From positions 131,564,001-131,628,000 of the forward strand of contig OZ024742.1 of the NCBI GenBank assembly GCA_964016885.1: a DNA stretch of 64,000 nucleotides, read 5' to 3'. This document shows positions 13,351-64,000 of this stretch, piece by piece (position 1 is the first letter of the stretch; each line of letters opens with the position of its first letter). This stretch comes from Eledone cirrhosa (lineage: Eukaryota). Both the position numbers and the translations under genes were made by a program. Below the pieces are notes generated by a model. It worked only from the letters and a program-made list of their open reading frames with translations. It searched no databases and had not been told where the DNA came from.

Positions 13351-13524
<174 letters not shown>

Positions 13525-13555
13525 AGTGTAATTTTCTACACAAAACGAAGGTTAT

Positions 13556-13754
13556 AGAGAAAATTGAGGTTGGTAATGGCACATGGAATATATAAGAGAC
13601 AGAATACTTTTTTGTGAAAAAACATATAATTTTATAAGGTAAGGAAATAATAAAGGGTATTATTTCCTTACCTTATAAAATTATATGTTTTTTCACAAAA
13701 AAGTATTCTGTCTCTTATATATTCCATGTGCCATTACCAACCTCAATTTTCTCT
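13556..13754. repeat. Perfect palindrome, 97 bp arms with 5 nt loop, in (TA)n
   Basis: 13556-13652 is the reverse complement of 13658-13754. The terminal TTACCAACCTCAATTTTCTCT recurs at ~46244-46265. Confidence 0.9.
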
Positions 13755-13761
13755 CTCTCTC

Positions 13762-13792
<31 letters not shown>

Positions 13793-13919
13793 GTATGTAT
13801 ATATATATATATATATATATATGCATATTTATATGTATGCGTGTATATATATATATATATATATATATATTACATATACATATATATATGCATATATTTC
13901 AAACAGAGAACAGAATATG

Positions 13920-14440
13920 TAAGCACTGTCTTGATGACGACAAGAGTCAGTTATCCACAGTTACCCACCCTTGCTTCCGCTAGAATCCGTTTCTTGGTGC
14001 TACGTCATCAGTTTCCAAAATTCATAGCTGAAGGCTTTCAAAAGGTTTATTCTAAACATTCCGTACATTGCTAGATATACAAATACTCATAGTTATATGT
14101 ATACAGCTATGTTAGAGTGAATACCTTAATTTCATTTTCCGTCGAGCCATATGTACATTTAGTCAGCCTATGTGCATAGGTATCAAAACTATGTTTTCTC
14201 CTATATTGAGTTCCAGTAGGGAGTTGGGTAAGGGAGCACTGTCTTGATAAGGACCAGGGTCAGAAAAGATGATCGTCGTCGATATTTACCCACTCTTGCT
14301 TCTGCTGGAATCTGCTAGTCTTCAGAAACGTCTTCAGTTTCCAAAGTTCTCAGCTGAAGGCTTTCAAAATGTTTATTCATAAACTTACCATATATCGCTA
14401 GATATACAAAATCCTCTCACTTATTTGTATACATCTATGG
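13920..14440. repeat. Diverged tandem duplication of a ~190-200 bp unit
   Basis: AGCACTGTCTTGAT...CAGTTTCCAAA.TTC..AGCTGAAGGCTTTCAAAA.GTTTATTC...GCTAGATATACAAA at 13922-14111 and 14235-14439. Confidence 0.8.
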
Positions 14441-14832
14441 ATATCCGTCGCTTCTCTGATGTTGTCTCTCCTCATCTTCACTCATCACATACGCCATGAG
14501 TACTGACATTCGATTCAAGTCTAGTTGAAAGACACAATACCGAGAAGATATCGGTAAAGGATTCCATGTTTCCTATTCGGTTACAGAATTTAGGAATGAT
14601 TAATTTCTACGCTTGATTCATTCAGTTGCTTGATGCCATCGGCTTCACGCTGCTGTACACCATGGATTACTTTCCGCCACAATTTCCGATCTGTAGCAAG
14701 TCTTAGAAAGACTTATTACTGAATTGCACAATTTGGTCTTTTCGATTCTTCAATTACGTTTCATCCTCAAGGTTGTATAGAACTAAATACATACATACAT
14801 AAGTGCATACATAAATACATATATACATACAT

Positions 14833-15180
14833 AGGAAATTACCAGTAAAATCCATTAATGGAAGAGTAGCAATATGTAAAATAGTCCAACAATTCTGCAT
14901 CTAATAACAGCATATACACATGTACAGATACAAAACATATACACATGCACACACACAACTAAAATATACACATCAACACATACAATAACATCTCTACCTG
15001 CACACACATATACATGCGCGCATTCATACAGACATATCTAGTTGATGTTGTGTAAATTCCAATGACAGAGTCATTTACATGACTCTGTCATTGGATTTAC
15101 GTTAGAAACCGACTCTCTCTGGTAAAAAAAACCGACTCTCTATTGGTAAAAATTTGTGAAATTATAAAACTAGAACGAAC
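14833..15180 (+). mobile_element. R4/Dong-like LINE family B, 5'-truncated (ORF end plus 3' UTR), flanked by (CATA)n
   Basis: Reverse complement of 55086-55380; (CATA)n lies on both sides. Confidence 0.8.
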
Positions 15181-15219
15181 ATACATACATATATACATAC
15201 ATACGTACATACATATATA

Positions 15220-15934
15220 CAAGAACCCCCTACCAAATATCTGCTGCACAAAAGGGGAGGGCCAGCAGCTGACAATAAATGTAGGCTATGTAAAACAAAG
15301 ATCGAGGATGTAAGCCACATTGTTGCCAACTGCGAAAGAATGTCATCTCGCTATTACCACCCCATGAGACACGATGGGATAGCTAGAACCATCTGGAACG
15401 CACTTCGGAAAACAAAATTAACAACAAACGAGGAAGAATATATTGAGAGAGATGGCACTAAGGAATACTGGTGGAACCTGAAAATAAAAACTGCCACCAA
15501 ATTAAAGCACAACCGGCCTGATATTGTTGTTTGGGACCACACATTGAAAACGTGTTCTGTTGTGGAGATCAGCTGCCCACTTAATGTAAACGTTGTCAGA
15601 AAAATACAGGAGAAAGAGGACATCTACGGACAATTGATGAGGAGTTTACAAATCCAGTATCCAAGATACACCTTTAGCTTCATACCCATCATTATTGGAG
15701 CTACGGGTTATATACCAACCCGCTTGGACCAAAGTATGATTGAACTTGGATTCGCGGACAAAAAGCGCAGCTCCCTAATTCATAGTCTACAAATGGCTGC
15801 GATAGCTGGCACCTTCAAAATTTGCAAAACATTCTTGCGATTCAAGGGATGACAATTTCTTTTCTTTTACAACTTTGCCACCAGGAAGGTGGCCGGTCAA
15901 AATAATATATTCGAAATTAAGAGAAAGAGATAAC
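15220..15934 (+). mobile_element. R4/Dong-like LINE family A, 5'-truncated (CCHC finger plus restriction-like endonuclease)
   Basis: CRLC..ED.SHIVANC, RHD, HNRPDIVVWD and VEISCP motifs; near-identical to 61565-62280; (CATA)n on both sides. Confidence 0.9.
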
Positions 15935-16049
15935 ATGCATAGTTACATACATAAATACATACATACATACATCAATACATACATACATAACATACATACT
16001 CACACATAAATATATGCACCAATGCTTATATAGTTATTCACATATACAT

Positions 16050-16480
16050 AGAAGAATATTGATAATACCTAAACATAAAATCGCCACCAAATTAAAACAA
16101 CCTACCTGATATTGTTGTGTGTGACAACACATTAAAAAAACAAACATGTATGCATATATTTATGTATGAATGTATGCATAATGTCTGTTTCTAATTAATT
16201 TTGCATTTACCTTTGACCACCCACCTTCCCGGTAGCAAGGTTATAAAGAAGGAAATCTTCTTCGTCACTTGTGCAATCATTCATCCTTTGAATTGTAAGA
16301 ATGTTTTACTGATTTTGAAAGTTTCACATAACGTGCCATTTGTAGTTTATGAATTAAGGAGCTACGAATTTTCTCTACAAACACATGTTCAGTTATACTT
16401 TGGTCCAGACAGGTTGATATATATCCTGTAGTGCCGATAATAATAGCTATGAAACTGCATGTGTATTGTGGCTACTGGAT
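16050..16480 (-). mobile_element. Old diverged family A pieces: small + fragment (16050-16142) and 3' end on - (16180-16480)
   Basis: TTGACC..CCACCTTCC.GGT.GCAAGGTT.TAAA, CATCC.TTGAAT.G.AAGAATGTTTT and ATACTTTGGTCCA align with 61590-61850. Degenerate (ATGT)n at 16146-16180. Confidence 0.75.
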
Positions 16481-16898
16481 TAGCAAACTTTTATACATAT
16501 CCTCTATATATTCTATTTTTCTTCCTACTTTGACATCAAGCTGGTAGTTGACTTCTATACAAAAACATAATTTATTAAAGCATCCAATAATATTGTTCCT
16601 CATGCAAATTGTCCAAATAAAGAAACTAAAGTAAAATGAATTTTATAACGAAATAACAGTAATATTATATTCATAATGGAAAGTGATTTAAATATATCTT
16701 ATGAAAATATAAACCGAAGAATTTGTGAGTTCATTAAAATTTATATATATATAAACAGATATTTGCCCCCCCCCCCCCCACCTATCTCTCTCTTATATAT
16801 ATATCTAATATATATATATAGACTTTTATACTCAATACTACACAATCGGAGCAAAAAGAATAATGAAAATACCACCGTGAACTTAAAAAAGTACTCAA

Positions 16899-21432: not shown

Positions 21433-21691
21433 GAGGAAGATGAAAGACCAAGGGAGCACCCCTTCTCTGTGCTCCCGAGGAGAAGGGTTGCACACTTTTT
21501 TCGGGGGTGTGTGCGACCCCCAAGGCGCCTCCTCTCTATTGAGGACTTTGTTATAAATTTTATTTTTTGTTATATTTTATTTTATTTTTATATATTGTTA
21601 TTGCCTCCTCCTTATTGAGGACGCCTTGTTTTGTAAACTCCCCCCATTGTTCTTGTCCCACTTTTGATGCCCTGGTGGCAAATAAAAGAAA
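21432..21691 (+). mobile_element. Tx1-like LINE, 3' UTR-only copy in (TATC)n
   Basis: Close match to 22418-22678; ends AATAAAAGAAA. Confidence 0.85.
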
Positions 21692-21696
21692 CATAT

Positions 21697-22677
21697 CTCT
21701 GGCACACTGAGTGTGCCCAGGCGCTCACCGCCTTCTGGCAGGCGGATCCGGTTATCAGTGGAGACTCCACCGCAACATTCTATAGAGGGCTGGTACGCAG
21801 CAGGTGCGACGACGCCCTCGGAGAAGCCCTAGACATGGAGGAGGACGAACTGGCCAGCCTGTTCGGTAGGACATTCAGCCCAGGACCTATGGACAACTTC
21901 CAGAAGTCCCTGGCCTGGCAGTGCTACCGAGGGGCTTTACCCGTTCGAGAAAGGCTCTACAGACACGGGCGCCCGGGTCGGGACCCCGCCAAAAAGATCT
22001 GTCCCAGATGCGTGTGCGACGAGGAAACCGTTGCACACGCATTGGTACACTGCTCGGGCGTAGCCGATCTGTGGGGCTATGTCGAACAACTGCTGTCAAG
22101 GGTGGGACCGATCCGGTTGACCACCGAGTCTATTGTAATGATCAAGCCGCCTCCCCCCTTCAAAGATGAAGCAGAGGCGGTGTTTCTGTGCGTAATAGCC
22201 ATGGCGAAAGAGGTTGTATGGTGGACGCGTCTGAAAGGACTGAGGTCAGGCACCTTTCTCTCTGGCCAACAACTGGTCCGTTTCTTCCGATATCATTTCG
22301 GAAGAAGGATCAGGATGGAGAGAGAGGTGCTGCACCCCAGTCGTTTTTATGAAAGATGGGTGAAAGTGGCGAGAATGGCCCGTGTGAATGGGCCTTCACT
22401 CTACATCAGACTATAGGTGAGGAAGATGAAAGACCAAGGGAGCACCCCTTCTCTGTGCTCCTGAGGAGAAGGGTTGCACACTTTTTTCGGGGGTGTGTGC
22501 GACCCCCCAAGGCGCCTCCTCTCTATTGAGGATTTTGTTAAAAATTTTATTTTTTGTTATATCTTATTTTATTTTTATATTTTGTTATTGCCTCCTCCTT
22601 ATTGAGGACGCCTTTTTGTGTAAACTCCCCCCTTTGTACTTGTCCCACTTTTGATGCCCTAGTGGCAAATAAAAGAA

Positions 22678-32929: not shown

Positions 32930-35690
32930 AACATAGACATATTGTTATACTTTCGGAGGGTCATGCTGTCAACAAAAACACACGCACCTGATGATTTTCA
33001 CTTCAATTTATTATAAATTTCCTGTTGGTTGTTTGGTTCGATAACCGGATGATTGTTTATATATTGTCAAAGCTCTTTTGTCACATACTGTGACCTTGTG
33101 AACGACGGGGTGTATATTTTGTATGTCTCCCCTTTGTTCTGTCCTACACTGAGTTGTGTGTTGTGTGTTTGGTTAGCACATGCGATACATCCAGGTGTGT
33201 GTGCGTTTTTTTTATTTATTCATTTATGTGTTTATTTACTCGCTGGTTGTTTGTCTATCCGTGTGTGTCTGGTTTGTTTTATTAGTTTGATTTTTGAGTG
33301 TGTCTGAATGTCTTCATTTTGTCCTTAATTACAGGTTGTTATGTTGTTATTCCACCCATGTTTTCGGTTTAATTTTGGTTGGAGTTCGTTTTTCTTTGTC
33401 GCTTATGTAATTTGTCTGAGCATTACATATTTTATGTGTGCGCATATAATATATATCTCTATGTTCTCTAATGTGCCTCTATGTTCTATTTTGGCATGTT
33501 GGTGGAGTACTGATGAGTTTTTCCCATCTTGAAGTTCCCACCAGTGTTCACTTATCCCTTCTCCTATGCTACGGGCTGTTTCACCTATGTATGTTGTGTT
33601 CTTATTCCTACACTGTCCCCAAATGCATCTTATGCTATATACTACATGTCTAATTTTGCAGTCAGTTTGCGGGATTAGCTTGCAGACTATGCATTTCTTC
33701 TCAACACAAGTATATGTTTACTAATTAGGGTTTTTATGGGAATGCCTAGTCATTCAACTATCTTTATATTTGATTTTAGCTTGCCTAGAGCCCTTCTAAA
33801 TTTGTAAGCTAGTTTGCCTCTGGGGGTTACACTGACGAACATTACCCTCTGATATTTATTGCTATCATATCATAAGTTGATTTTATTTGTCTTTTTCTTA
33901 ATCCATTCTATTGTATTCCAAAATGTCCTCCTATACATAGAGCAAGGCCTATTTGGTCCTGGTCCCTTTATATACCCTGCACTTGTATCTCTGAGTGTAG
34001 CCAGAGAAGTGCATGCGGTGGATGATGTGTTGTATCTGTCTCTCTAATTCTTAGGGTTTACACATGCAGGACATGTTCCCCATTACTCTTACTAAATCCG
34101 CAATCAGTATGTTGATTTTCATGTTACCCTAAACGTTCTTGGAGGTGATGGGTTTGACATAATGCGAACGGAGGATTTGTGTTCTATTATTAATAGTTTC
34201 TAACCAGGGATCTGTGTTTAGTACAGGTAATCTATGCTTGGGATGTCTAGTTGTGTAGTCTATGGTAACTTTAATACTCTGGTGGATGGAGTTAGCTATT
34301 TGCTAATGCTTTCCATGGTTTTCTTCTCTAATCCCTGACTGTTTTCCCGTGGGGGTGTTTTTACTACGATGTTTGTGTCATCTACGTAGTGGGAGTATAT
34401 AGTCAGGGTTATACAATTGTCGTCTAAGTGTTCTTTAAGTCTTGTGTCCCACTATGCCATAAACAGGTTAGCTATGTCACCTGCAATACTAACGCCAATG
34501 GCTTCCCCTTCTCTTGGGCATATATTTTCCCATTAAACTTGAATATGTTCCTTAAGGGTTAGTTGTATACAGGCTCCCACCGTATGTGTGATAATTTTCT
34601 TTAATGTATCATAGTTTTAGGTGTCTGTATGGTTCTGTCCCACCCACTCCATTTTTCTGTGTGGGTCTTCTTGGCAATTGAGGTAATGGTAGGTGGTCGG
34701 CCTCTCTCTGGCCTTGTGGGACAGAGGCTGCTAAGGTCGTGTGCGTCTAAATAATCCTTATTGTGTGTGAGTTTAAGTAGGTGTCCAACCTCACTGATAA
34801 CAATCCCAGGGAATTCCACATCGCTGATCATATCTACGCATTTTGCCACAGCAAAATCAACGTCAATGGATGGATATAGGGATACTACATCCATGTTACC
34901 TATTGTACAGCCTGTCTGGTCCCTCGGCAGGCTGTATTCGCTGATTCTGTTTAGGAGGTCCTCCGTGCTGTCGCATATGTCTGAGGACATTTCGATTATA
35001 GGGCGTATGATCAGGGAGAGGAAGTAAGAGAGTCTGTAGTTGCTAGCAATGTTAGCTCCACAGACTGGCCGTGCCCGTGATCCCGTGACTGGGTCACTAT
35101 TTGCCTTGTGGTCTTTGTGAAGCCCATACAGCGTTGGTACATCATTGTCTCAGGCCTGAACGTTGTTGGCAGCCCCTTTGCTGTGTTGCATTATGCTAGA
35201 CCACATCATCATGTGAACATTGAGGATTGTTTCCCTTTCTTCATGCTCTTATGGTGTTACTTCTCTTGTGTTGAAGAGGTGACGTTGCATTGCCTGGAAA
35301 TAGCTTGGCAGGCTGTCTACTGACATTCTGCCAGACTTGTCTGTTGGAAATCTTATAATTTCTTCATTTCATGTATGAGTTTACGCAAGCCATTAGGGAC
35401 CCCCCCCCCCAGTTGCTGGGCCTCCATTCTATTCTGTTTCCTGTTATACTAGTCTAGAATAATTTTGATTTTAGTTCTGGGTATTGTGAATTGTGCCTCC
35501 GTTTGGTCATCAGTCAGTGACGGTAGACACGGTCGTTTGTGAACAGAAAGTCTCGTAGGATAAATGCGTCGCATGTAGAAGGACTTATCAGATGGGTTAT
35601 TGAAGTGAAAACCAACAAGTGCTTGCGTGTGTTTTTATTGGCAGCAGAACCCACGCTAAGTATAACAATATCTGTTTCCACACACGTGTT
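32930..35690 (-). mobile_element. Decayed near-full Penelope-like element (RT, Cys-rich linker, C-terminal GIY-YIG) with inverted terminal repeat
   Basis: GNMDVVSLYPSID, GEAIGVSIAGDIANLFM..WD, YSHYVDDTNI, MKINILIADLVRVM, MFVSVTPRGKLA, CKIRHVVYSIRC...YIGETARSIGEGISEH. 32930-33006 is inverted at 35595-35685. Confidence 0.85.
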
Positions 35691-55085: not shown

Positions 55086-55632
55086 ATTCTTCTCGTTATA
55101 TAATTTCACAATATTTTGCCAATAGAGAGAGAGTCGGTTCTAACATAGACACAAGACTCTCTCATTGGAATTTACACATCAACTATGTAGATATGTCTGA
55201 ATGTCTGCATGCATGTGTAGGTATGGATGTTATTGTATGTGTGGATGTGTATGTTTTGAGTTGTATGTGCGCTTTGTATCTGTATGTGCAGTCTGTGTAT
55301 ATGCAGTTATTAGATGCAACATTTATGGTATGTTTTACATATTTTTAGTTCCATTAATGGATTGTACTTGTAATTTCCTAACTAGTTGTGTTATTTCTGT
55401 TCATATGAAGCCCAGCTTCTCAAGATTTGCATTGAGGCAGTTACTAACATATCCCAGTGTCCCAACAATCACAGGCATAAATCTGAAGGTATAATCAGGG
55501 TGGAGTATCTGCAGATTTCTCATTAGTTCTGCATAGATATTCTCCTTTTCGCTAATCTTTGATATTATATTGGCATCTGCTGGGCGCTAACTTCCACTAC
55601 TGTGCATGCCTTCTTATTCCTGTCCCATATCA
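55086..55632 (-). mobile_element. R4/Dong-like LINE family B, 5'-truncated (endonuclease C-terminus plus ~230 bp 3' UTR)
   Basis: Not in the ORF track. Reads WDRNKKACTVVEVS/PADANIISKISEKENIYAELMRNLQILHPDYTFRFMPVIVGTLGYV, homologous to family A; (ATGT)n on both sides. Confidence 0.85.
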
Positions 55633-55656
55633 TTATATCAATGTATGTATGTATGT

Positions 55657-57144
55657 AAAGATCATGTCCACAGTGCTACGCCCAGCCCGAAAGCCCGACT
55701 GCGACTCTGGTAGAGCTTCATCAGCAATGTGGAGCAATAGACGGTCCAACAGAATTGTACAGAGAACTTTGCCGACAAATGACAACAGTGATATCCCACG
55801 ATAGTTTCCGCAGTCATCCCTGTCTCCCTTTCCCTTGTATAAAACAACCATCACAGCATCCTTCCAGTCATCGGGAACATGATTGTTGTTCCAGGCATCC
55901 AGAACCAAAGAATGAAGTCAGGAGGTTCAATGCTAAGTCAAAGGTTCACTTGTCACCAATCAGGGATTTGCTTTATGCAGATGACTGTGACCTGGTAGCG
56001 CACACTGAGATTGATATGCAGCATCTCATGGATGCATTTTCTAAAGCGTGTATTGCATTGGGACTTACCATAAACCTGAAAAAGACAGTAGCCATGTACC
56101 AACCAGCTCCTGGGAAGCCATGTTGTGAGCCCAACATCTTGGTTTATGGTGAACGGCTAAGGGTCGTTGGCAGTTTTGTATATCTTGGAAGCACTCTGAG
56201 TATGTCCTGCGATCTTGATGGGGATACAAAAAGCCAGTGGTGCTTTTGGAAAACTGAACAAGCGTCTCTGTTCTCAACGCGGAATTTCGGTAAAGACAAA
56301 GCTCAAAGTGTATCATGCGTATGTGCTCGCGGCACATATTTATGCTTGTGAGACGTGGGTGCTCTACCGTAGACAGATGAAGCGACTTGAGAGGTTCCAC
56401 CAGTACTGCTTACGTCGGATCCTCGGCATAACCTGGCAAATATTTGTCAGTGACGTCGAGGTTCTAGACAGAAGTGGATGTGATAGTGTAGAGTCCTTGA
56501 TTTTGTACCATCAGCTGCGCTGGACAGGCCATCTTGTAAGGATGAATGACAAGCGAATGCCGAAGCAACTGCTTTATGGCGAGCTCCAAATGGGAAAAAG
56601 GAACGCGAGTAAACCCAAGATGCGTTTTAAGGACTGCATCAAGGGGGCGCTCAAGAAAAGTAACGTCCCTTGTGAGCACTGGGAAGCATGCGCTAGCGAC
56701 CGATCGCATTGGAGGAAAGCAGTGGCTAGTGGCAAGAGTCTGTTTGAGGAAACAAGAATAAGGCACGCGACACTAAAATGAGATGACCGGAAAGGAATCC
56801 ATGTTGGCCTTCCCGAAGGCACTGACAGACGGCCTGACCTGACATGTGAGACCTGTAATAGGGTTTGTCTGAGCATGGCAGGTCTAAAGAGTCACCTGAG
56901 AGTGCACAAGAACAGGGAAGCAGGCACCTGTGGAGCTATAAGTGTTCATCAGACGACGACATGTGATGTTTGTGGAAGGGTATGCAGGTCGCGTAGTGAT
57001 CTCACACGACACCTTGGGTCACATGGTACCATGGGTCCAGCACTAGGTGTCAATAATTGTCACAAGTGTAGTGTTTGTACCAGAGTTTTATACCATGGAT
57101 ATAAAGTAGTGGCCGTACTCGAAAACGAGTTGGCAGCCACCACC
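55657..57144 (+). mobile_element. RTE LINE (family 2), 5'-truncated with inverted 5' segment (55657-55917 on -), RT plus C2H2 fingers
   Basis: Minus strand: LHSLVLDAW..NYRGISLLS..PESQSGFR..DMIF. Plus strand: LLYADDCDL, YACETW, QLRWTGHL, CETC..H..H, CDVC..H..H. Ends in a 3' stem-loop then (ATGT)n. Confidence 0.92.
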
Positions 57145-57203
57145 ATGTATGTATGTATGTATGTATGTATGTATGTATGTATGTATGTATGTATGTATGT
57201 ATG

Positions 57204-57755
57204 TCGGGTCGTTGGCGACTAAACTGGCAACCCCACCAAGGTTTCTTGGTGAGGAGGGTGACTTTGGACATCCTGCAGGACTAAAAACAAAACCTGTCAA
57301 AGGGCAAGGGAGCTCTTAAGACTCAATAGCCATCCAAAATCACCGGGAGAGATGACCCCTTAGCCTTTGTCAAGGCAGAATTCTAGGAGAAGGAAAACTC
57401 TGATATAACACCTGCAACCCTGATGGTATCCAATGATGTTGACTTGTTCTTCTTTTTGGTAAATATCATCTTGGTTAAGAGAGTGGGACTGGCTTTGTGC
57501 AGTGCCTTTGCTCACTATAAAAGCTTCACAGCACAGGCATTGCTTTATATCTGGAGATCTCTCTGCACTTGTCATCACATGGTACCATAGGGGCCCCGCA
57601 CTATGTGTCAATAATGGTCACAAGTGTAGTCTTTGTACCAAAGTTTTCAAGTCGCTGGCTGGACTAAAAAGTCACATTCGTTCAGCGCATCGGTAGGGGT
57701 TCTCCTACATGGATATAAAGTAGTGGCCGTACTCGAAAACGAGTTGGCAGCCACC
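57204..57755 (+). mobile_element. Bipartite non-autonomous RTE derivative (5' UTR-like head fused to RTE 3' end)
   Basis: Head GGGTCGTTGGCGACTAA...CTAGGAGAAGGAAAACTCTGA. The 3' half matches 57020-57144 and encodes the CSLC..FKSLAGLKSHIRS finger remnant. (ATGT)n on both sides. Confidence 0.8.
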
Positions 57756-57776
57756 ATGTATGTATGTATGTATATA

Positions 57777-60445
57777 TGGTACGCACAAAAGTGAAACTAA
57801 TCACTAAACGAAAAATCCGGGCTCCTGGTGTTGCCCTGCCCCAAAGATTGAATGCTGCTCGTCTTAAGGATAAAAATGTGAAGAGGACATTGGAAGAAGA
57901 GATGCAGGCTGCAGATCTTGGTGAGGATTGGCCGACCCTTAAAAAGTCGGTTTATGATGTAGGCAGGCGTGTACTGGGATTGGTGCAGAGAAAACATCAG
58001 GGCTGGTTTAATGAGAATGATGTACATATAGAAGACTTGTTGGCTGATAAGAGGAGTGCTCTGTCACGCTACTTGACGGCAAAACCACAGGAGAGGAATA
58101 CGGTGCATGAGGAACTCAGGGATGTAAAATCACGTGTTAGGCGGAGTCTTTCTCAGATGAAGGATCAGTGGTGGAGTGAGAAGGCTGGTGAGATACAAAC
58201 TGCGTCAGATTCCAATAACACAAAGCTGTTGTACAGTCTCTTGCGTGAGGTTTATGGACCGTCTTCTTCTCTGGTGACACCGCTTCGCAGCAAGGATGGC
58301 AAAGAACTTCTTCGTGACTCACAAGGAATTCTACGAAGATGGCGAGAGCACTTTAAAAATCTTCTGAATCAGCCGTCTGTCGTCAGTGAAGATTTCCTCA
58401 ATCTCATTACAGAAAGTCCTGTGAAAGTAGCTCTCGCAGAACCTCCGACGCTTGTGGAGGTTGCAGTGGCTATTTCGAAGCTGAACAGTGGAAGATCTCC
58501 AGGTATGGATGGCATATATACTGAGCTCCTACAATATGGTGGTGAGAGACTCCTGCAACATCTTCACTCTTTGTTTGGCAGGATATGGGCTAATGAATCC
58601 GTACCTGAGGACTGGAGAGATGCAGTAATGGTGGTCTTGTACAAGGGAAAGGGTAACAGGAATGATTGTGGAAACTACAGAGGTATATCATTGCTTTCTG
58701 TCGTAGGGAAAGTTTTATGTAGGGTGCTTCTGAACCGTCTGCTGACACACATTGCAGATTGTGTTCTTCCTGAAAGTCAATCTGGTTTTCGTGTTGGACG
58801 CGGCACTACTGATATGATCTTCTCAGCTAGACAGCTCCAGGAGAAGTGCATGGAACAAGGCTTGGATCTGTATCAGGTTTTTGTCGATCTGACAAAAGCT
58901 TTCGATACTGTTAACAGAGATGCATTATGGAAGGTTCTCCAGAAACATGGTTGCCCTGATAAGTTCCTTGCTTTAGTTAGGTCTTTCCATGACGACATGA
59001 AGGCTTGGGTTAATGTCGGAGGTAACATGTCGGAGCCTATCTCAGTAAAAAATGGAGTGAAACAGGGGGATATTCCAGCACCGACCCTGTTTGCCATATA
59101 CTTTGCAATGGTTTTCTGTATTGCATTCAGGAATTGCGAGCATGGTGTTTACATCCGATATCGAACCTCAGGCAACATATTTAACATCAGGCGCTTTGCT
59201 GCGAAGACAAAAGTATTTACATCAATCATAAGTGACCTCTTGTATGCAGATGATTGCGATCTTCTAGCGCAGACAGATAGTGATATGCAGCACATTTTGA
59301 ATGCATTTTCTGGTGCTTGCAATGCCCTAGGATTGACTGTCAGTCTCAAGAAAACCGTCGTCATGTACCAACCTGCCCCTGGTAAGCAGTACACTGAACC
59401 AAACATCTATGTGTATGGCAAACGACTTGGAGTGGTTGATCAGTTTGTCTACCTGGGAAGCACTGTCAATCGATACAGCAACCTTGACAGTGAAATCTCA
59501 CTTAGGATTAGGAAAGCAAGTGATGCTTTCGGAAAGCTAGAAAGGCGACTCTGGGGTCGACGAGACATATGCAGCAGGACAAAGGTAAAGGTGTACAGGG
59601 CATGTGTGCTCTCTTGTCTTCTTTATGCCTGCGAGACCTGGGTCACGTATCGACACCACCTTAAGCAATTGGAGCGTTTCCATCAGATGTGTCTCAGACG
59701 GATCCATGGCGTTCACTGGAGGGACCACATCAGTGATGTCGAGATTTTGGAAAGCTCTATGTGTGACAGTATAGAAGCTCTTGTGCTGAAGCAACGACTC
59801 CGTTGGAGTGGTCACCTTGCCAGGATGAAGGATTCTAGAATACCAAAACAACTCTTTTATGGAGAGTTGGTTAAAGAAAAACGACCGCCACATAAACCAA
59901 ACAAGAGGTATAAGGATTCCTTGAAAGCCTCTCTGAAAGACGCTAACATCTCTGCTGATACATGGGAAAATATTGCTGCTGATCGTAATAAATGGAGAAA
60001 GACTGTATATGAGGGAAAAGTTGCCTTTGAGGCATCACGAATCGCATACGAGAAAGTAAAGCGGGATGTGAGGAAGGGCATTGCTTTTGCACTTCCAGAC
60101 GGCGAGGGTCCTCCTATGGTGATGACATGCAGCGTCTGTGCGAGACTCTGCCTAAGCGAAGCTGGACTCGAAAGTCATCTTCGCAGTCATAAAGTAAGAC
60201 CAGTGGTTGACTACCAGGCTGCTGTTGGAGATGCTACTCATCATGCTTGCCAAACATGTGGTAGAGAATGTATATCAGCAGGAGGGCTCAAGCGACATAC
60301 AACAGTACACGAACTCCAACCACAGCCGACTATTCCCAGTGAATGTTTTGGTTGTCGACTCTGTGCAAGACATTTTAGATCCTTTTAGATCATTTTAGAT
60401 CATTCGCTGGGCTAAAAAGCCACATTCGATCGCAGCGCTGTTAGT
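57777..60445 (+). mobile_element. RTE (BovB-like) LINE family 1, 5'-truncated, open RT ORF with three C-terminal C2H2 fingers
   Basis: 874 aa ORF with SPGMDGI, NYRGISLLS, FVDLTKAFDTV, GVKQGD, LLYADD and LRWSGH. The APE domain is missing; a 10 bp triplication (C.TTTTAGAT) frameshifts the last finger. Confidence 0.95.
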
Positions 60446-60659
60446 TGCTATCGTGTGTGTGTGTGTGTATAGATATGCTTATGTGTGTGTGTGTATGTGT
60501 ATATATATATATGTATATGTATATTATTATTGTTGTTGTCGTTATTATATTGTTGTTATTATTTTTATTATTATTATTGTTATTAATGTATGTGTCTGTG
60601 TGTGTGTATATGTGTGTATATGTGTGTATGTATGTATATATATATATACATACATACAT

Positions 60660-60888
60660 TATAAAAGCTTCATGGCACAGACATTGCTTTATATCTGGAG
60701 ATCTCTCTGGAGATCTCTCGTCACATGGCCCAGCACTACGTGTCAATAATTGTCACAAGTGTAGTGTTTGTACCATAGTTTTCAAGTCGCTGGCTGGACT
60801 AAAAAGCCACACTCATTTAGCGCATCGGTAGGGGTTCTCCTACATGGATATAAAGTAGTGGCCGTACTCGAAAACGAGTTGGCAGCCA

Positions 60889-60890
<2 letters not shown>
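60660..60890 (+). mobile_element. 3' part of the bipartite RTE derivative
   Basis: Matches 57517-57755 including GTGGCCGTACTCGAAAACGAGTTGGCAGCCACC. Confidence 0.85.
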
Positions 60891-60940
<50 letters not shown>

Positions 60941-60998
60941 TTTTAATTTTTATTTTTTTTTGTTTATTTATTATTATTATTATTATTTATTTTTTTCT

Positions 60999-61040
60999 CC
61001 TCGTGCAATGGCCATACTCGATAACGAGGGGGCAGCCATC
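60999..61040 (+). mobile_element. Minimal RTE 3' stem-loop insertion with (ATGT)n tail
   Basis: ATGGCCATACTCGATAACGAGGGGGCAGCCATC followed by ATGTATG... Confidence 0.7.
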
Positions 61041-61072
61041 ATGTATGATGTATGTATGTATGATGTATGTAT

Positions 61073-61330
61073 GTTCTTCTGGTTTTATAATTTCACCAAT
61101 TTTTTACCAATAGAGATAGAATCGGTTTCTAACATAGACACAAGACTCTCTCATTGGAATTTACACAACATCAACTAAGTAGATTATGTATGCATGCATG
61201 TGAAGATATGGATGTTATTGTATGTGTGGATGTGTATGTTTTGAGTTGTATGTGTGCATGTGTTTATGCTTTGTATCTGTACATGTGTATATGCAGTTAT
61301 TAGATGCAACATTTTTGGAATGTTATATAT
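61073..61330 (-). mobile_element. R4/Dong-like family B 3' UTR copy inserted in an RTE tail
   Basis: Matches 55086-55335; ATGT repeats on both sides. Confidence 0.85.
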
Positions 61331-61339
61331 CTATGTATG

Positions 61340-61534
61340 TTAGTCTACTTTTCGGGTAGTGTTTTTGATGGTCAGAGAGTGCAAGGCCTTTCCCCACTTA
61401 AAATCCTTCAAAGCACAGGCATTGCTTGTTTAGGATATGTTGCAGGTTTGTGTGACTGGCCGTAGCCTAAAAGTACACCAAACTCTATAATCTGACAAGC
61501 GATGTCAGTACTCTTAGCAGAGTTTCCAGCCATC
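61340..61534 (+). mobile_element. Diverged RTE-derived non-autonomous fragment
   Basis: CTTCA.AGCACAGGCATTGCTT is shared with 57524; ends ACTCT TAGC AGAGT TTCCAGCCATC followed by (ATGT)n. Confidence 0.7.
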
Positions 61535-61564: not shown

Positions 61565-64000
61565 GTTTTCTCTTTCTCTTAATTTCGAGTATATTTTTTT
61601 GACCGGCCACCTTCCTGGTGGCAAGGTTGTAAAAGAAAAGAAATTGTCATCCCTTGAATCGCAAGAATGTTTTGCATATTTTGAAGGTGCCAGCTATCGC
61701 AGCCATTTGTAGACTATGAATTAGGGAGCTGCGCTTTTTGTCCGCAAATCCAAGTTCGGTCATACTTTGGTCCAAGCGGGTTGGTATATAACCCGTAGCA
61801 CCAATAATGATGGGTATGAAGCTAAAGGTGTATCTTGAATACTGGATTTGTAAGCTCCTCATCAATGGTCCGTAGATGTCCTCCTTCTCCTGTATTTTTC
61901 TGACAACGTTTACATCAAGTGGGCAGCTGATCTCCACAACAGAACACGTTTTCAATGTGTGGTCCCAAACTACAATATCAGGCCGGTTGTGCTTTAATTT
62001 GGTGGCAGTTTTTATTTTCAGGTTCCACCAGTATTCCTTAGTGCCATCTGTCTCAATATATTCTTCCTCGTTTGTTGTTAATTTTGTTTTCCGAAGTGCG
62101 TTCCAGATAGTTCTAGCTATCCCATCGTGTCTCATGGGGAGGTAGTAGCGAGATGACATTCTTTCGCAGCTGGCAACGATGTGGCTTACATCCTCGATCT
62201 TTGTTTTACATAGCCTACATTTATTGTCAGCTGCTGGCCCTCCTCTTTTGTGCAGCAGATATTTGGTAGGGAGTTCTTGTTCCTGTATTGCATAGAGATA
62301 TCCCTCAAGGTGTGATGTCATAAACTTGTCGGAACTCCATGCCAGGCTTTTTGAGTGGTTTATCCCCTCTATGGTCTGTGTTTTACGCCTCAAGTATCCA
62401 TGCACAACTTTCTCTGTAAATTGGTCAATTTTTTTTCTTGTTTGAACATTGAATAGGATCTTCCGATTTCTCTGGGTGAGAGATTTATATCAGGCTTTAT
62501 TCCATATCTCTCCTCCAGATCAGTCGCTATTCTAATGATATTTCTTTTTTCATGCTCATAAACCTGAGCAAGATGGTCGCCAACCTTTTTCCTCTGTTGA
62601 AGGTGTTGCTTCAGTGTTACTATCCGGGTCTCATATGTTGTTAATATTGATTTTAGACCCCGGCCACCTTCCTTGCGTGAGAAGTATAGCCTATCCACAT
62701 CACCATTGATGTTAAAGTTCCCAGTAACACTGAGAAGTTTACGAGTTCTAACATCCATCTCACTTAGTTCTTGCAATGACCAGTTCAGTAGGCCAAATGT
62801 TGGCGTTAGAATTGGCACAGCATAGGTATTGTGGGCAATGTATTTGTTGTATGCTGACAGTTCTGATGATCATATTTTTTTTTACTCTTCTGAGGTATTC
62901 AGTTCTGGTTCTCTCCTTATTTATGGGTCCATCATATCTGACATTCTCATCCTGTCCAAGATATCTGTAGTTGTCACCTGACTGCAGAGGTTGTATTGTC
63001 AGGCCGTTCATATCTAGATTTCTAGAGGAGGGCACAGCTCTTCCACGTTTTACTGCCAAATATGCACACTTGGACTCACTAAATTTCATTTTGATGTCGG
63101 TTGAAAATTGTGTAATGAGGTCCAATTGTTTCTTGATGTCATTGATATTTGGCCCATACAACTTCAGGTCATCAACAAAGAAAAGATGGGAGATACTTCT
63201 GGGCCCACTTCTTTGTCCACCTTGTTTCCTGAGTAGGTAAGATAGTGGATTCAGTGAGAGAACGAAGAGTAGTACTGACAAGCTATCACCCTGAAAGATG
63301 CCCTTCTGGTAATGTATCCTATCAGTCTTAACCTGCTCCTTCTCACCTCTAAGGATCAAATTGGTGTACCAGTTCTTGGTCAGGCGTTCAACAGCAGCTA
63401 CTAATGGTTGTGGGACTTTAGCTAACTGTAAAGCCTTAATAATCCACCCATGAGGTACACTATCAAATGCTTTTTGATAGTCCAGCCACACGACAGTCAT
63501 GTTTCTGCGATTCTTTGTTGTTTTTTCCTGAATCATTTTGTTAGTTAGTAGGTGATCTATGCAACCCCACACCTCCCTCTTTCCACCAGCTTGCTCAGGT
63601 GTTATGATGTTGTTGGTAGCACAGTGATCCTGTAAGAACAGGTTAAGGCACCCAGTATATAATTTATGCATGATGTTTTGGCAGGCAATTGGGCGGTAAT
63701 TTTTAGCAAGGGTGGTTTGGCTATTTTGGGGAATGAGGAGAGTAGTGGCAGTTGATAACCATCTGGGCAGTTCTTGTGTGCCCTTAATGGTTTCTGTAAA
63801 CAGCCGTATGAGATCTTGCCGATAGAAAGTGAAATTCTTCAACCAGTATCCTGTAATGAGGTCTGGGCCTGGCGATTTCCTATTCGACATTTTCTGTAGA
63901 GCTGTTTCCAGTATTGACCCATCTATGTCATATTGTTTTGTCTGGACATGTTGGCAGTAGTCCTGTTCCAGTTGTTTTAGCCAATTAGCTTGTCTGTTGA
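61565..64000 (-). mobile_element. R4/Dong-like LINE family A (RT, CCHC, restriction-like endonuclease), two frameshifts, runs off the window
   Basis: KSPGPDLI, NYRPIAC, WLDYQKAFDSVPH, GIFQGDSLS, HLFFVDDLKLY, YRYLG, RKEGGRGL, CRLC, RPDIVVWD; 3' end GAGAAAAC followed by (ATAC)n. Confidence 0.93.

What the first reader, a model, noticed from the sequence alone, without database searches (positions are those of the whole stretch)
14788..16480. Second independent nest shows the same (CATA)n rule for two R4/Dong-like families
Seen: (CATA)n - family B - (CATA)n - family A - (CATA)n in tandem on +, then an older family A 3' end on - that abuts an ATGT tract. Orientation therefore again follows the repeat strand. 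Together with 55-64 kb, all six 3' ends abut CATA and the visible truncated 5' ends of the younger copies do too. Known R4-clade targets include 28S rDNA and (TAA)n; I do not recall a tetranucleotide CATA target. Inference: a new target specificity, of possible interest for site-specific insertion tools.
Basis: partly seen in the sequence, partly recalled or inferred. Interest (0 to 1): 0.75.

Follow-up and report, generated by a model that had tools for sequence, protein, structure and literature searches.

The report
Dong-type retrotransposons targeting CATA repeats
Two abundant jumping-gene families in an octopus-like genome sit with both ends in CATA repeats, always facing the same way, so they likely home to that repeat instead of the TAA repeat their known kin use, and close relatives flanked by CTTA suggest a little-studied branch that would let one test how such enzymes change targets.

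Summary
Mostly confirmed. At 14.8-16.6 kb, 5'-truncated copies of two R4/Dong-type retrotransposons (RT plus restriction-like endonuclease) are stacked head-to-tail in (CATA)n. CATA is a target, not only a tail: all 5 visible 5' ends in the window abut it (9-12 of 12 bases), and 5 of 14 displayed 5'-side loose ends in public reads are (CATA)n, from two species labels. One correction: the 'older copy on -' is the inverted 3' part of a + copy, not an independent insertion. RTE-type LINEs use the same tracts on the opposite strand. The closest fetched relatives are flanked by (CTTA)n and group with family A, apart from all TAA-flanked relatives. Dong-R4 LINEs are catalogued in Octopus, with no target named in what I read. 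The repeat itself is a known LINE target (ACAY, for the unrelated APE-type Waldo), so the novelty is confined to the R4/RLE class; Repbase and Dfam could not be checked. The scan earlier noted the same two-strand pile-up on TAA/TTA repeats in this genome, not on CATA. New variant of a known kind; interest 0.48.

The parts
14787..14833 (+). (CATA)n tract, 5' flank of family B copy
   Evidence: TRF 11.8 copies, 76% matches; 11 of 12 bases before the junction
14834..15178 (+). family B, 5'-truncated: last codons plus 3' UTR
   Evidence: 71-74% to B copies at 55 and 61 kb
15179..15221 (+). (CATA)n between B 3' end and A 5' end
   Evidence: TRF 10.8 copies, 84%
15222..15933 (+). family A, 5'-truncated: CCHC knuckle, restriction-like endonuclease, stop at 15852, 3' UTR
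   Evidence: 96-97% to the 61-64 kb copy; weak zf-RVT hit; tblastn to full-length relatives
15934..15999 (+). degenerate (CATA)n after A
   Evidence: TRF 16.5 copies, 78%
16051..16138 (+). older A-like copy, upstream piece, 5' end after a short CATA-like run
   Evidence: 80% to A; residues 167-180 of the A C-terminal frame
16146..16572 (-). inverted 3' part of the same older copy with its CATA tail (16146-16176)
   Evidence: continues at residue 180
14492..14786 (-). possible old RTE-type 3' remnant bordering the nest (weak)
   Evidence: tblastn E 7e-4 and hmmsearch E 0.0015 in a tiny search space
55086..55640 (-). family B copy with endonuclease coding; CATA at both ends
55658..57144 (+). RTE-type LINE fragment with ATGT at both ends
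57774..60388 (+). RTE-type LINE (relatives have AP endonuclease, RT, C2H2 fingers); 5' end after an ATGT tract
   Evidence: the clade name rests on likeness to RTE-2_OV (PMC9115989), no tree against named elements
61075..61330 (-). family B 3' UTR copy; CATA tail, two-unit CATA remnant at the 5' end
61566..64000 (-). longest family A copy (RT, CCHC, RLE; frame broken; cut by the window end)
   Evidence: RVT_1 E 9e-25, zf-RVT

Best explanation
Families A and B are 5'-truncated copies of R4/Dong-type retrotransposons whose junctions lie in (CATA)n with the CATA strand as sense strand, likely because the element protein recognises that repeat, nicks the TATG strand and copies its RNA from the nick. 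Shown: RT, CCHC and endonuclease coding, CATA at both ends, fixed polarity, and a steep fall in depth from the 3' to the 5' end. Inferred: an N-terminal SANT/Myb-like domain (seen only in relatives) and the endonuclease choose the site. A CAUA-ending RNA would pair with the primer. Copying usually stops early, and the new strand would be joined at 1-5 bases of microhomology with the CATA strand. Each insertion splits the tract and leaves targets on both sides, so arrays grow. RTE-type LINEs with ATGT tails use the same tracts on the other strand and likely add more sites. A later inversion likely flipped the distal 430 bp of the oldest copy.
For: 6 of 6 3' ends and 5 of 5 visible 5' ends in the window abut CATA on the element strand, although (TA)n offers 154 tracts/5062 bp against 23 tracts/419 bp for ACAT. 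In reads laid on the A interior, 5 of the 14 displayed 5'-side loose ends are (CATA)n, at five different positions, in runs X4, X8 (organism D) and X1 (organism A). A read joint in X7 shows a truncated B, three repeat units, then another B 3' end (table 5c). Junction overlaps of 3, 2, 3, 5, 1 bases against a null mean of 0.79, P 0.0007 (5 of 10 junctions were countable, by eye). Summed depth falls from about 630,000 to 22,000 along A in X4 (not a copy number). Relative L002 is a full 1153-codon frame with (CTTA)n at both ends. The relatives' N-terminal domain is homologous to that of TAA-flanked relatives and folds as three helices with SANT/Myb-type top matches.
Against: 628 loose-end rows were not shown, so no genome-wide rate is known. 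Three displayed 5'-side rows (X2 15505, X2 15600, X1 15757) are neither CATA nor clearly element or library chimera. Two window 5' flanks are short (9 and 10 of 12), and junctions within one nest are not independent. X4 may be the assembly's own sample. No data separate protein recognition from RNA-tail pairing. The window holds no N-terminus. The fold match is only Z 7.1 (rmsd 2.2, 73 aligned), a range common for helical models, and Foldseek found nothing at E <= 0.001. L003 and L006, in the wider clade, show no tetranucleotide tract.
Confidence: 0.7

Rival explanations
1. The target is real but is set mainly by pairing of the RNA's repeat tail with nicked DNA, with a lax endonuclease; the switch from TAA to CATA or CTTA would then be a change of tail, not of protein.
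For: Tail and target are the same repeat in the CATA, CTTA and TAA lineages. RTE-type LINEs in the same nests behave alike with another nuclease class. Tail-guided site choice is proposed for RTE (PMC6007223, passages).
Against: The tetranucleotide elements form a long-stemmed clade with their own conserved basic arm before the Myb-like helices. The N-terminal Myb domain is thought to direct site choice in this class (PMC7998251). RTE-type ends here are laxer: one 3' end runs into (TA)n and one 5' end follows the opposite strand.
Confidence: 0.2
2. Tandem B-A arrays arise in single events by the RT jumping from one RNA to the CAUA tail of the next, so the internal tracts are tails.
For: B-(CATA)n-A and B-(CATA)n-B joints exist.
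Against: The 5' flanks of the three B copies border non-Dong DNA of opposite polarity. Neighbours differ in divergence: A copies are 96-97% alike, the older copy 72-80%.
Confidence: 0.04
3. CATA is only an element-encoded tail and insertion is random.
For: Every 3' end has the repeat; some 5' flanks are short.
Against: 5 of 5 window 5' junctions and 5 read-derived 5' junctions carry CATA.
Confidence: 0.03
4. Copies accumulate passively in repeat-rich DNA.
For: The window is microsatellite-rich (11,875 of 64,000 bases masked).
Against: Fixed polarity, and no junction in the far commoner TA, AC or AG tracts.
Confidence: 0.03

Closest known systems
Dong (Bombyx), DongAg, DongBg, ostracod Dong1/2; R4/Dong clade (PMC7998251, PMC3812793, PMC3774820; passages)
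   Same: RT plus REL endonuclease, N-terminal SANT/Myb-like domain without zinc fingers (in relatives), insertion into a microsatellite
   Different: Reported target is (TAA)n; here (CATA)n. Family A is only 32-39% identical in RT to TAA-flanked relatives and falls in a separate clade.
Octopus Dong-R4 LINEs (PMC13282606 parts 1-2 of 3 and supplement search; PMC9115989, PMC8967140, PMC10294476 passages)
   Same: Abundant in octopods: 51 families and 92.7 Mb in O. vulgaris, 5 families recently active. A and B may well be among them.
   Different: No target sequence in the text I saw; their consensus files could not be compared.
WaldoAg1/2 and WaldoFs1 (PMC3812793; primary paper not seen)
   Same: Target ACAY microsatellites, which include the CATA/ACAT repeat
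   Different: AP-endonuclease elements of insects (R1 clade, from the cited title). No junction seen here lies in pure (AC)n. Convergence, not kinship.
RTE-2_OV-like RTE LINEs (PMC9115989; PMC6007223)
   Same: The neighbouring + strand LINEs have RT, C2H2 fingers and a microsatellite tail
   Different: Other nuclease class, opposite strand of the same tract, laxer ends

Membership tests
R4/Dong clade | RT followed by CCHC knuckle and restriction-like endonuclease in one ORF | tested here: met
   RVT_1 and zf-RVT; colinear with full-length relatives; the relatives' profile matches R2 structures over RT to C-terminus, E 2e-47. The RHD and PD motifs are recalled labels.
R4/Dong clade | N-terminal SANT/Myb-like domain without zinc fingers | tested here: inconclusive
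   Not in the window. In relatives: no CxxC finger pattern in 7 of 7 checked; homologous to N-termini of TAA-flanked relatives, iE 1e-5 to 1e-11; fold Z 7.1 to ISWI, Foldseek not significant.
R4/Dong clade | RT groups with named R4, Dong or Rex6 references | tested here: inconclusive
   No named references were available. Quick unrooted trees put A with Argonauta and unnamed proteins next to TAA-flanked relatives and a Bombyx protein not named Dong.
R4/Dong clade | site-specific insertion into a repeat or rDNA | tested here: met
Dong proper | (TAA)n target | tested here: not met
   0 of 11 window junctions in TAA; 19 of 33 fetched relatives with a C-terminus have AAT as first downstream tract
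R4/Dong clade | 5' self-cleaving ribozyme | tested here: inconclusive
   No 5' end in the window; no Rfam match at E <= 1 in L001 and L002
Waldo (R1 clade) | AP endonuclease at the N-terminus | tested here: not met
   Full-length relatives show no PF03372 or PF14529; the nuclease is C-terminal
R4/Dong clade | target-site duplication | not testable with these tools
   Hidden inside a repeat; needs empty-site alleles

The most novel reading that the evidence does not exclude
A and B belong to an unrecognised deep branch of the R4/Dong clade that left TAA for tetranucleotide C(A/T)TA targets (CATA in octopods, CTTA in another host), with a conserved arginine-rich arm before the Myb-like domain as the specificity switch, and it shares its repeats with RTE LINEs that seed sites on the opposite strand.
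Probability: 0.35. Interest if true: 0.65.

Novelty: new variant of a known kind. Interest (0 to 1): 0.48.

Why it matters
Microsatellite targeting by restriction-like-endonuclease retrotransposons is known but its basis is untested. Related proteins with TAA, CATA and CTTA targets, one with an intact frame and both flanks (L002), give a direct domain-swap and tail-swap test of protein versus RNA control of the site. Dong-R4 LINEs cover about 93 Mb of the O. vulgaris assembly, so a repeat-targeting rule would bear on how octopod genomes build their microsatellite and LINE pile-ups. As an insertion tool it is less attractive, because the target repeat is scattered through animal genomes (own knowledge).

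Tried and rejected
No whole genome is held, so no junction census was possible. Viral contigs: 99 pattern hits, 0 relatives. Prokaryote genome contigs: 20 hits, 0 relatives. Rfam on L001 and L002: 0 matches. Pfam on the N-termini of L001 and L002: 0 families. Foldseek on the N-terminal model: nothing at E <= 0.001. The careful tree did not finish; both trees are quick trees with SH-aLRT only (50 rows, 34 rows after dropping 16 listed rows, among them the RTE outgroup and a long branch). Low-agreement loose ends in RAD run X8 (15416, 15503, 15777, 15822, 15823) were rejected as random flanks: they lie on or within 4 bases of AATT sites where many reads end, as ligation chimeras would (inference). 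Twin priming was rejected for the inverted old copy: the reversed piece follows the tail instead of preceding the 3' part. The first lay showed mostly diverged-copy loose ends and said little about A 5' junctions. Runs X2 and X3 (shares under 0.2) are not used for any host or habitat claim. Two papers were not held (PMC3312299; PMC4400214). Scan look-ups by sequence, by nearby place and by eight words found nothing.

Full report
Setting. The window is animal DNA rich in microsatellites (11,875 of 64,000 bases masked). The best named match of the family A RT is an Argonauta hians protein, 63% identical, so the host is probably an octopod. No whole genome is held.

The nest. On + the sequence reads (CATA)n 14787-14833, family B 14834-15178, (CATA)n 15179-15221, family A 15222-15933, (CATA)n 15934-15999. 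A is 96-97% identical to the longer copy at 61.6-64 kb, which encodes RT and a CCHC knuckle and is colinear with full-length relatives to the C-terminal endonuclease. The 14.8-kb B copy is almost all 3' UTR. The 55-kb B copy encodes an endonuclease piece 44% identical to A and about 50% to other close relatives. B is therefore a second family of the same group.

The older copy on - runs to about 16572. A + piece at 16051-16138 covers residues 167-180 of A's C-terminal frame and the - piece continues from 180. One inversion of the 3' part and tail of a + copy explains this; twin priming does not fit the order. The nest was thus likely three + copies in a row. The inverted piece is no independent test of polarity, but the older copy adds a fifth 5' junction.

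Tail or target. All 6 of 6 3' ends abut CATA on the element strand. The 5 visible 5' ends match the repeat at 11, 11, 10, 12 and 9 of 12 bases, against backgrounds of 0.4%, 1.8%, 0.13% and 10% for >=11, >=10, 12 and >=9. Boundaries were set by eye and junctions in one nest are not independent; one junction from each nest gives about 5e-6. (TA)n offers 154 tracts against 23 for ACAT, yet holds no junction. For other copies I laid four runs on the A interior. Of 24 displayed loose-end rows (628 not shown), 14 lie on the 5' side: 5 are (CATA)n (X4 at three places, X1, and X8 with 316 reads), 4 are diverged element sequence, 2 are low-agreement rows on AATT sites, 2 are mixed and 1 is an unexplained 8-mer. 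X4 and X8 carry one species label, X1 another; X4 may be the assembly's source. One search adds a read joint of truncated B, three repeat units and another B 3' end, and a depth gradient typical of 5' truncation. Five countable junctions of ten show overlaps of 3, 2, 3, 5 and 1 bases between element and repeat, against a null mean of 0.79 (P 0.0007); this is suggestive only.

Neighbours. At 55-62 kb, + strand LINEs whose relatives carry an AP endonuclease and C2H2 fingers, like RTE-2_OV (PMC9115989 passages), lie in the same tracts on the other strand. Four of five listed 3' ends at 57-61.5 kb run into ATGT and one into (TA)n; four of five 5' ends at 55-61.4 kb follow ATGT and one follows CATA. 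Which class came first cannot be read from the geometry. The scan noted the same opposite-strand sharing on TAA/TTA repeats in this genome (e1-9522035, e1-9592150; unchecked notes); I reuse their reading that each insertion leaves sites for the other class.

Relatives. A metagenome scan returned 80 loci. Of 33 that reach the C-terminus, 19 have AAT as first downstream tract, 5 have none, 2 end in (CTTA)n and 7 show other tracts. The three closest are flanked by (CTTA)n: L001 at the 5' end, L005 at the 3' end, and L002 at both ends around an intact 1153-codon frame. They come from two similar assemblies and may share one host. Quick RT trees place A with them in a clade of SH-aLRT 99-100 inside a long-stemmed group that excludes all 12 or 9 TAA-labelled rows. 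B's endonuclease piece also scores best with L001, L002 and L005. L003 and L006, in the wider group, show no such tract. The group's N-terminal domain is homologous to that of TAA-flanked relatives, but the matches to those begin after a conserved arginine-rich arm that only the group has. A model of the L002 N-terminus has three helices with SANT/Myb-type top matches at modest Z (7.1, rmsd 2.2, 73 aligned) and no significant Foldseek hit.

Mechanism. Most likely (0.7) the protein recognises (CATA)n, nicks the TATG strand and reverse-transcribes from the nick, helped by a matching RNA tail; early stops are joined at short microhomology, and split tracts stay targets. The junction pattern is shown; nicking, the Myb role and tail pairing are inferred from what is known of R2/R4 elements. 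The main rival (0.2) is targeting by RNA-tail pairing alone.

What is known. R4/Dong elements insert into rDNA or microsatellites, (TAA)n in most insects, molluscs and cnidarians (PMC7998251 passages; PMC3774820 passages). Other RLE groups target other repeats, such as Togen on (TG)n (PMC4640811 passages). ACAY repeats, which include this one, are targets of APE-type Waldo (PMC3812793 passages). Dong-R4 is abundant in octopods (PMC13282606 parts 1-2 of 3 and a supplement search; passages of PMC9115989, PMC8967140 and PMC10294476), with no target named in what I saw. Passages of PMC13580325 and PMC5035012 added nothing. Ten searches (listings only except for the papers named) showed no CATA or CTTA target for an R4/Dong element. 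Not seen: Kojima and Fujiwara 2003 and 2004, Shivram 2011, Biedler 2015, Fell 2025 and its supplements, Repbase, Dfam and the Zenodo library of PMC13282606. Any of these could already record it; I put the chance that it is unreported at about 0.6.

Verdict. New variant of a known kind; interest 0.48.

Noticed in passing
L002:1-4871 (also L001:1-59, L005:2770-2853): Full-length relative with an intact 1153-codon frame and (CTTA)n at both ends; a second tetranucleotide target in the same clade.
   Followed up: partly
L002:326-380 and relatives: Conserved arginine-rich arm just before the first helix of the Myb-like domain, not matched in TAA-flanked relatives.
   Followed up: partly
window 55658-61534: Chain of RTE-type LINEs and short RTE-ended elements (57205-57755, 61340-61534) separated by ATGT tracts; 55658-55878 is inverted relative to the rest of its copy, as in twin priming.
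   Followed up: partly
window 15228-15860, run X2: Organism B holds near-identical A pieces (5 differences in 270 bases, 0 in 97) at low depth, while A is very deep in X1 and X4; few young copies, carry-over or transfer.
   Followed up: no
window 21433-22677: 259-bp direct repeats (96%) around a 259-codon frame with a zf-RVT hit, followed by a (TATC)n tract.
   Followed up: no
window 34601-35149 (-): 182-codon frame that looks like a Penelope-type RT fragment (recalled motifs); no Pfam hit.
   Followed up: no
window 13409-13897: About 490-bp fold-back (83%) with (TA)n arms around a unique core.
   Followed up: no
window 13922-14111 and 14235-14439: Two diverged (75%) tandem copies of a 200-bp unit after a TA tract, left of the nest.
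   Followed up: no
L006:1995-2005; L029:3284-3469; L065:6997-7009: Other relatives are followed by AC, AAC/AGC or ATG tracts instead of TAA: possible further target shifts or decayed tails.
   Followed up: no
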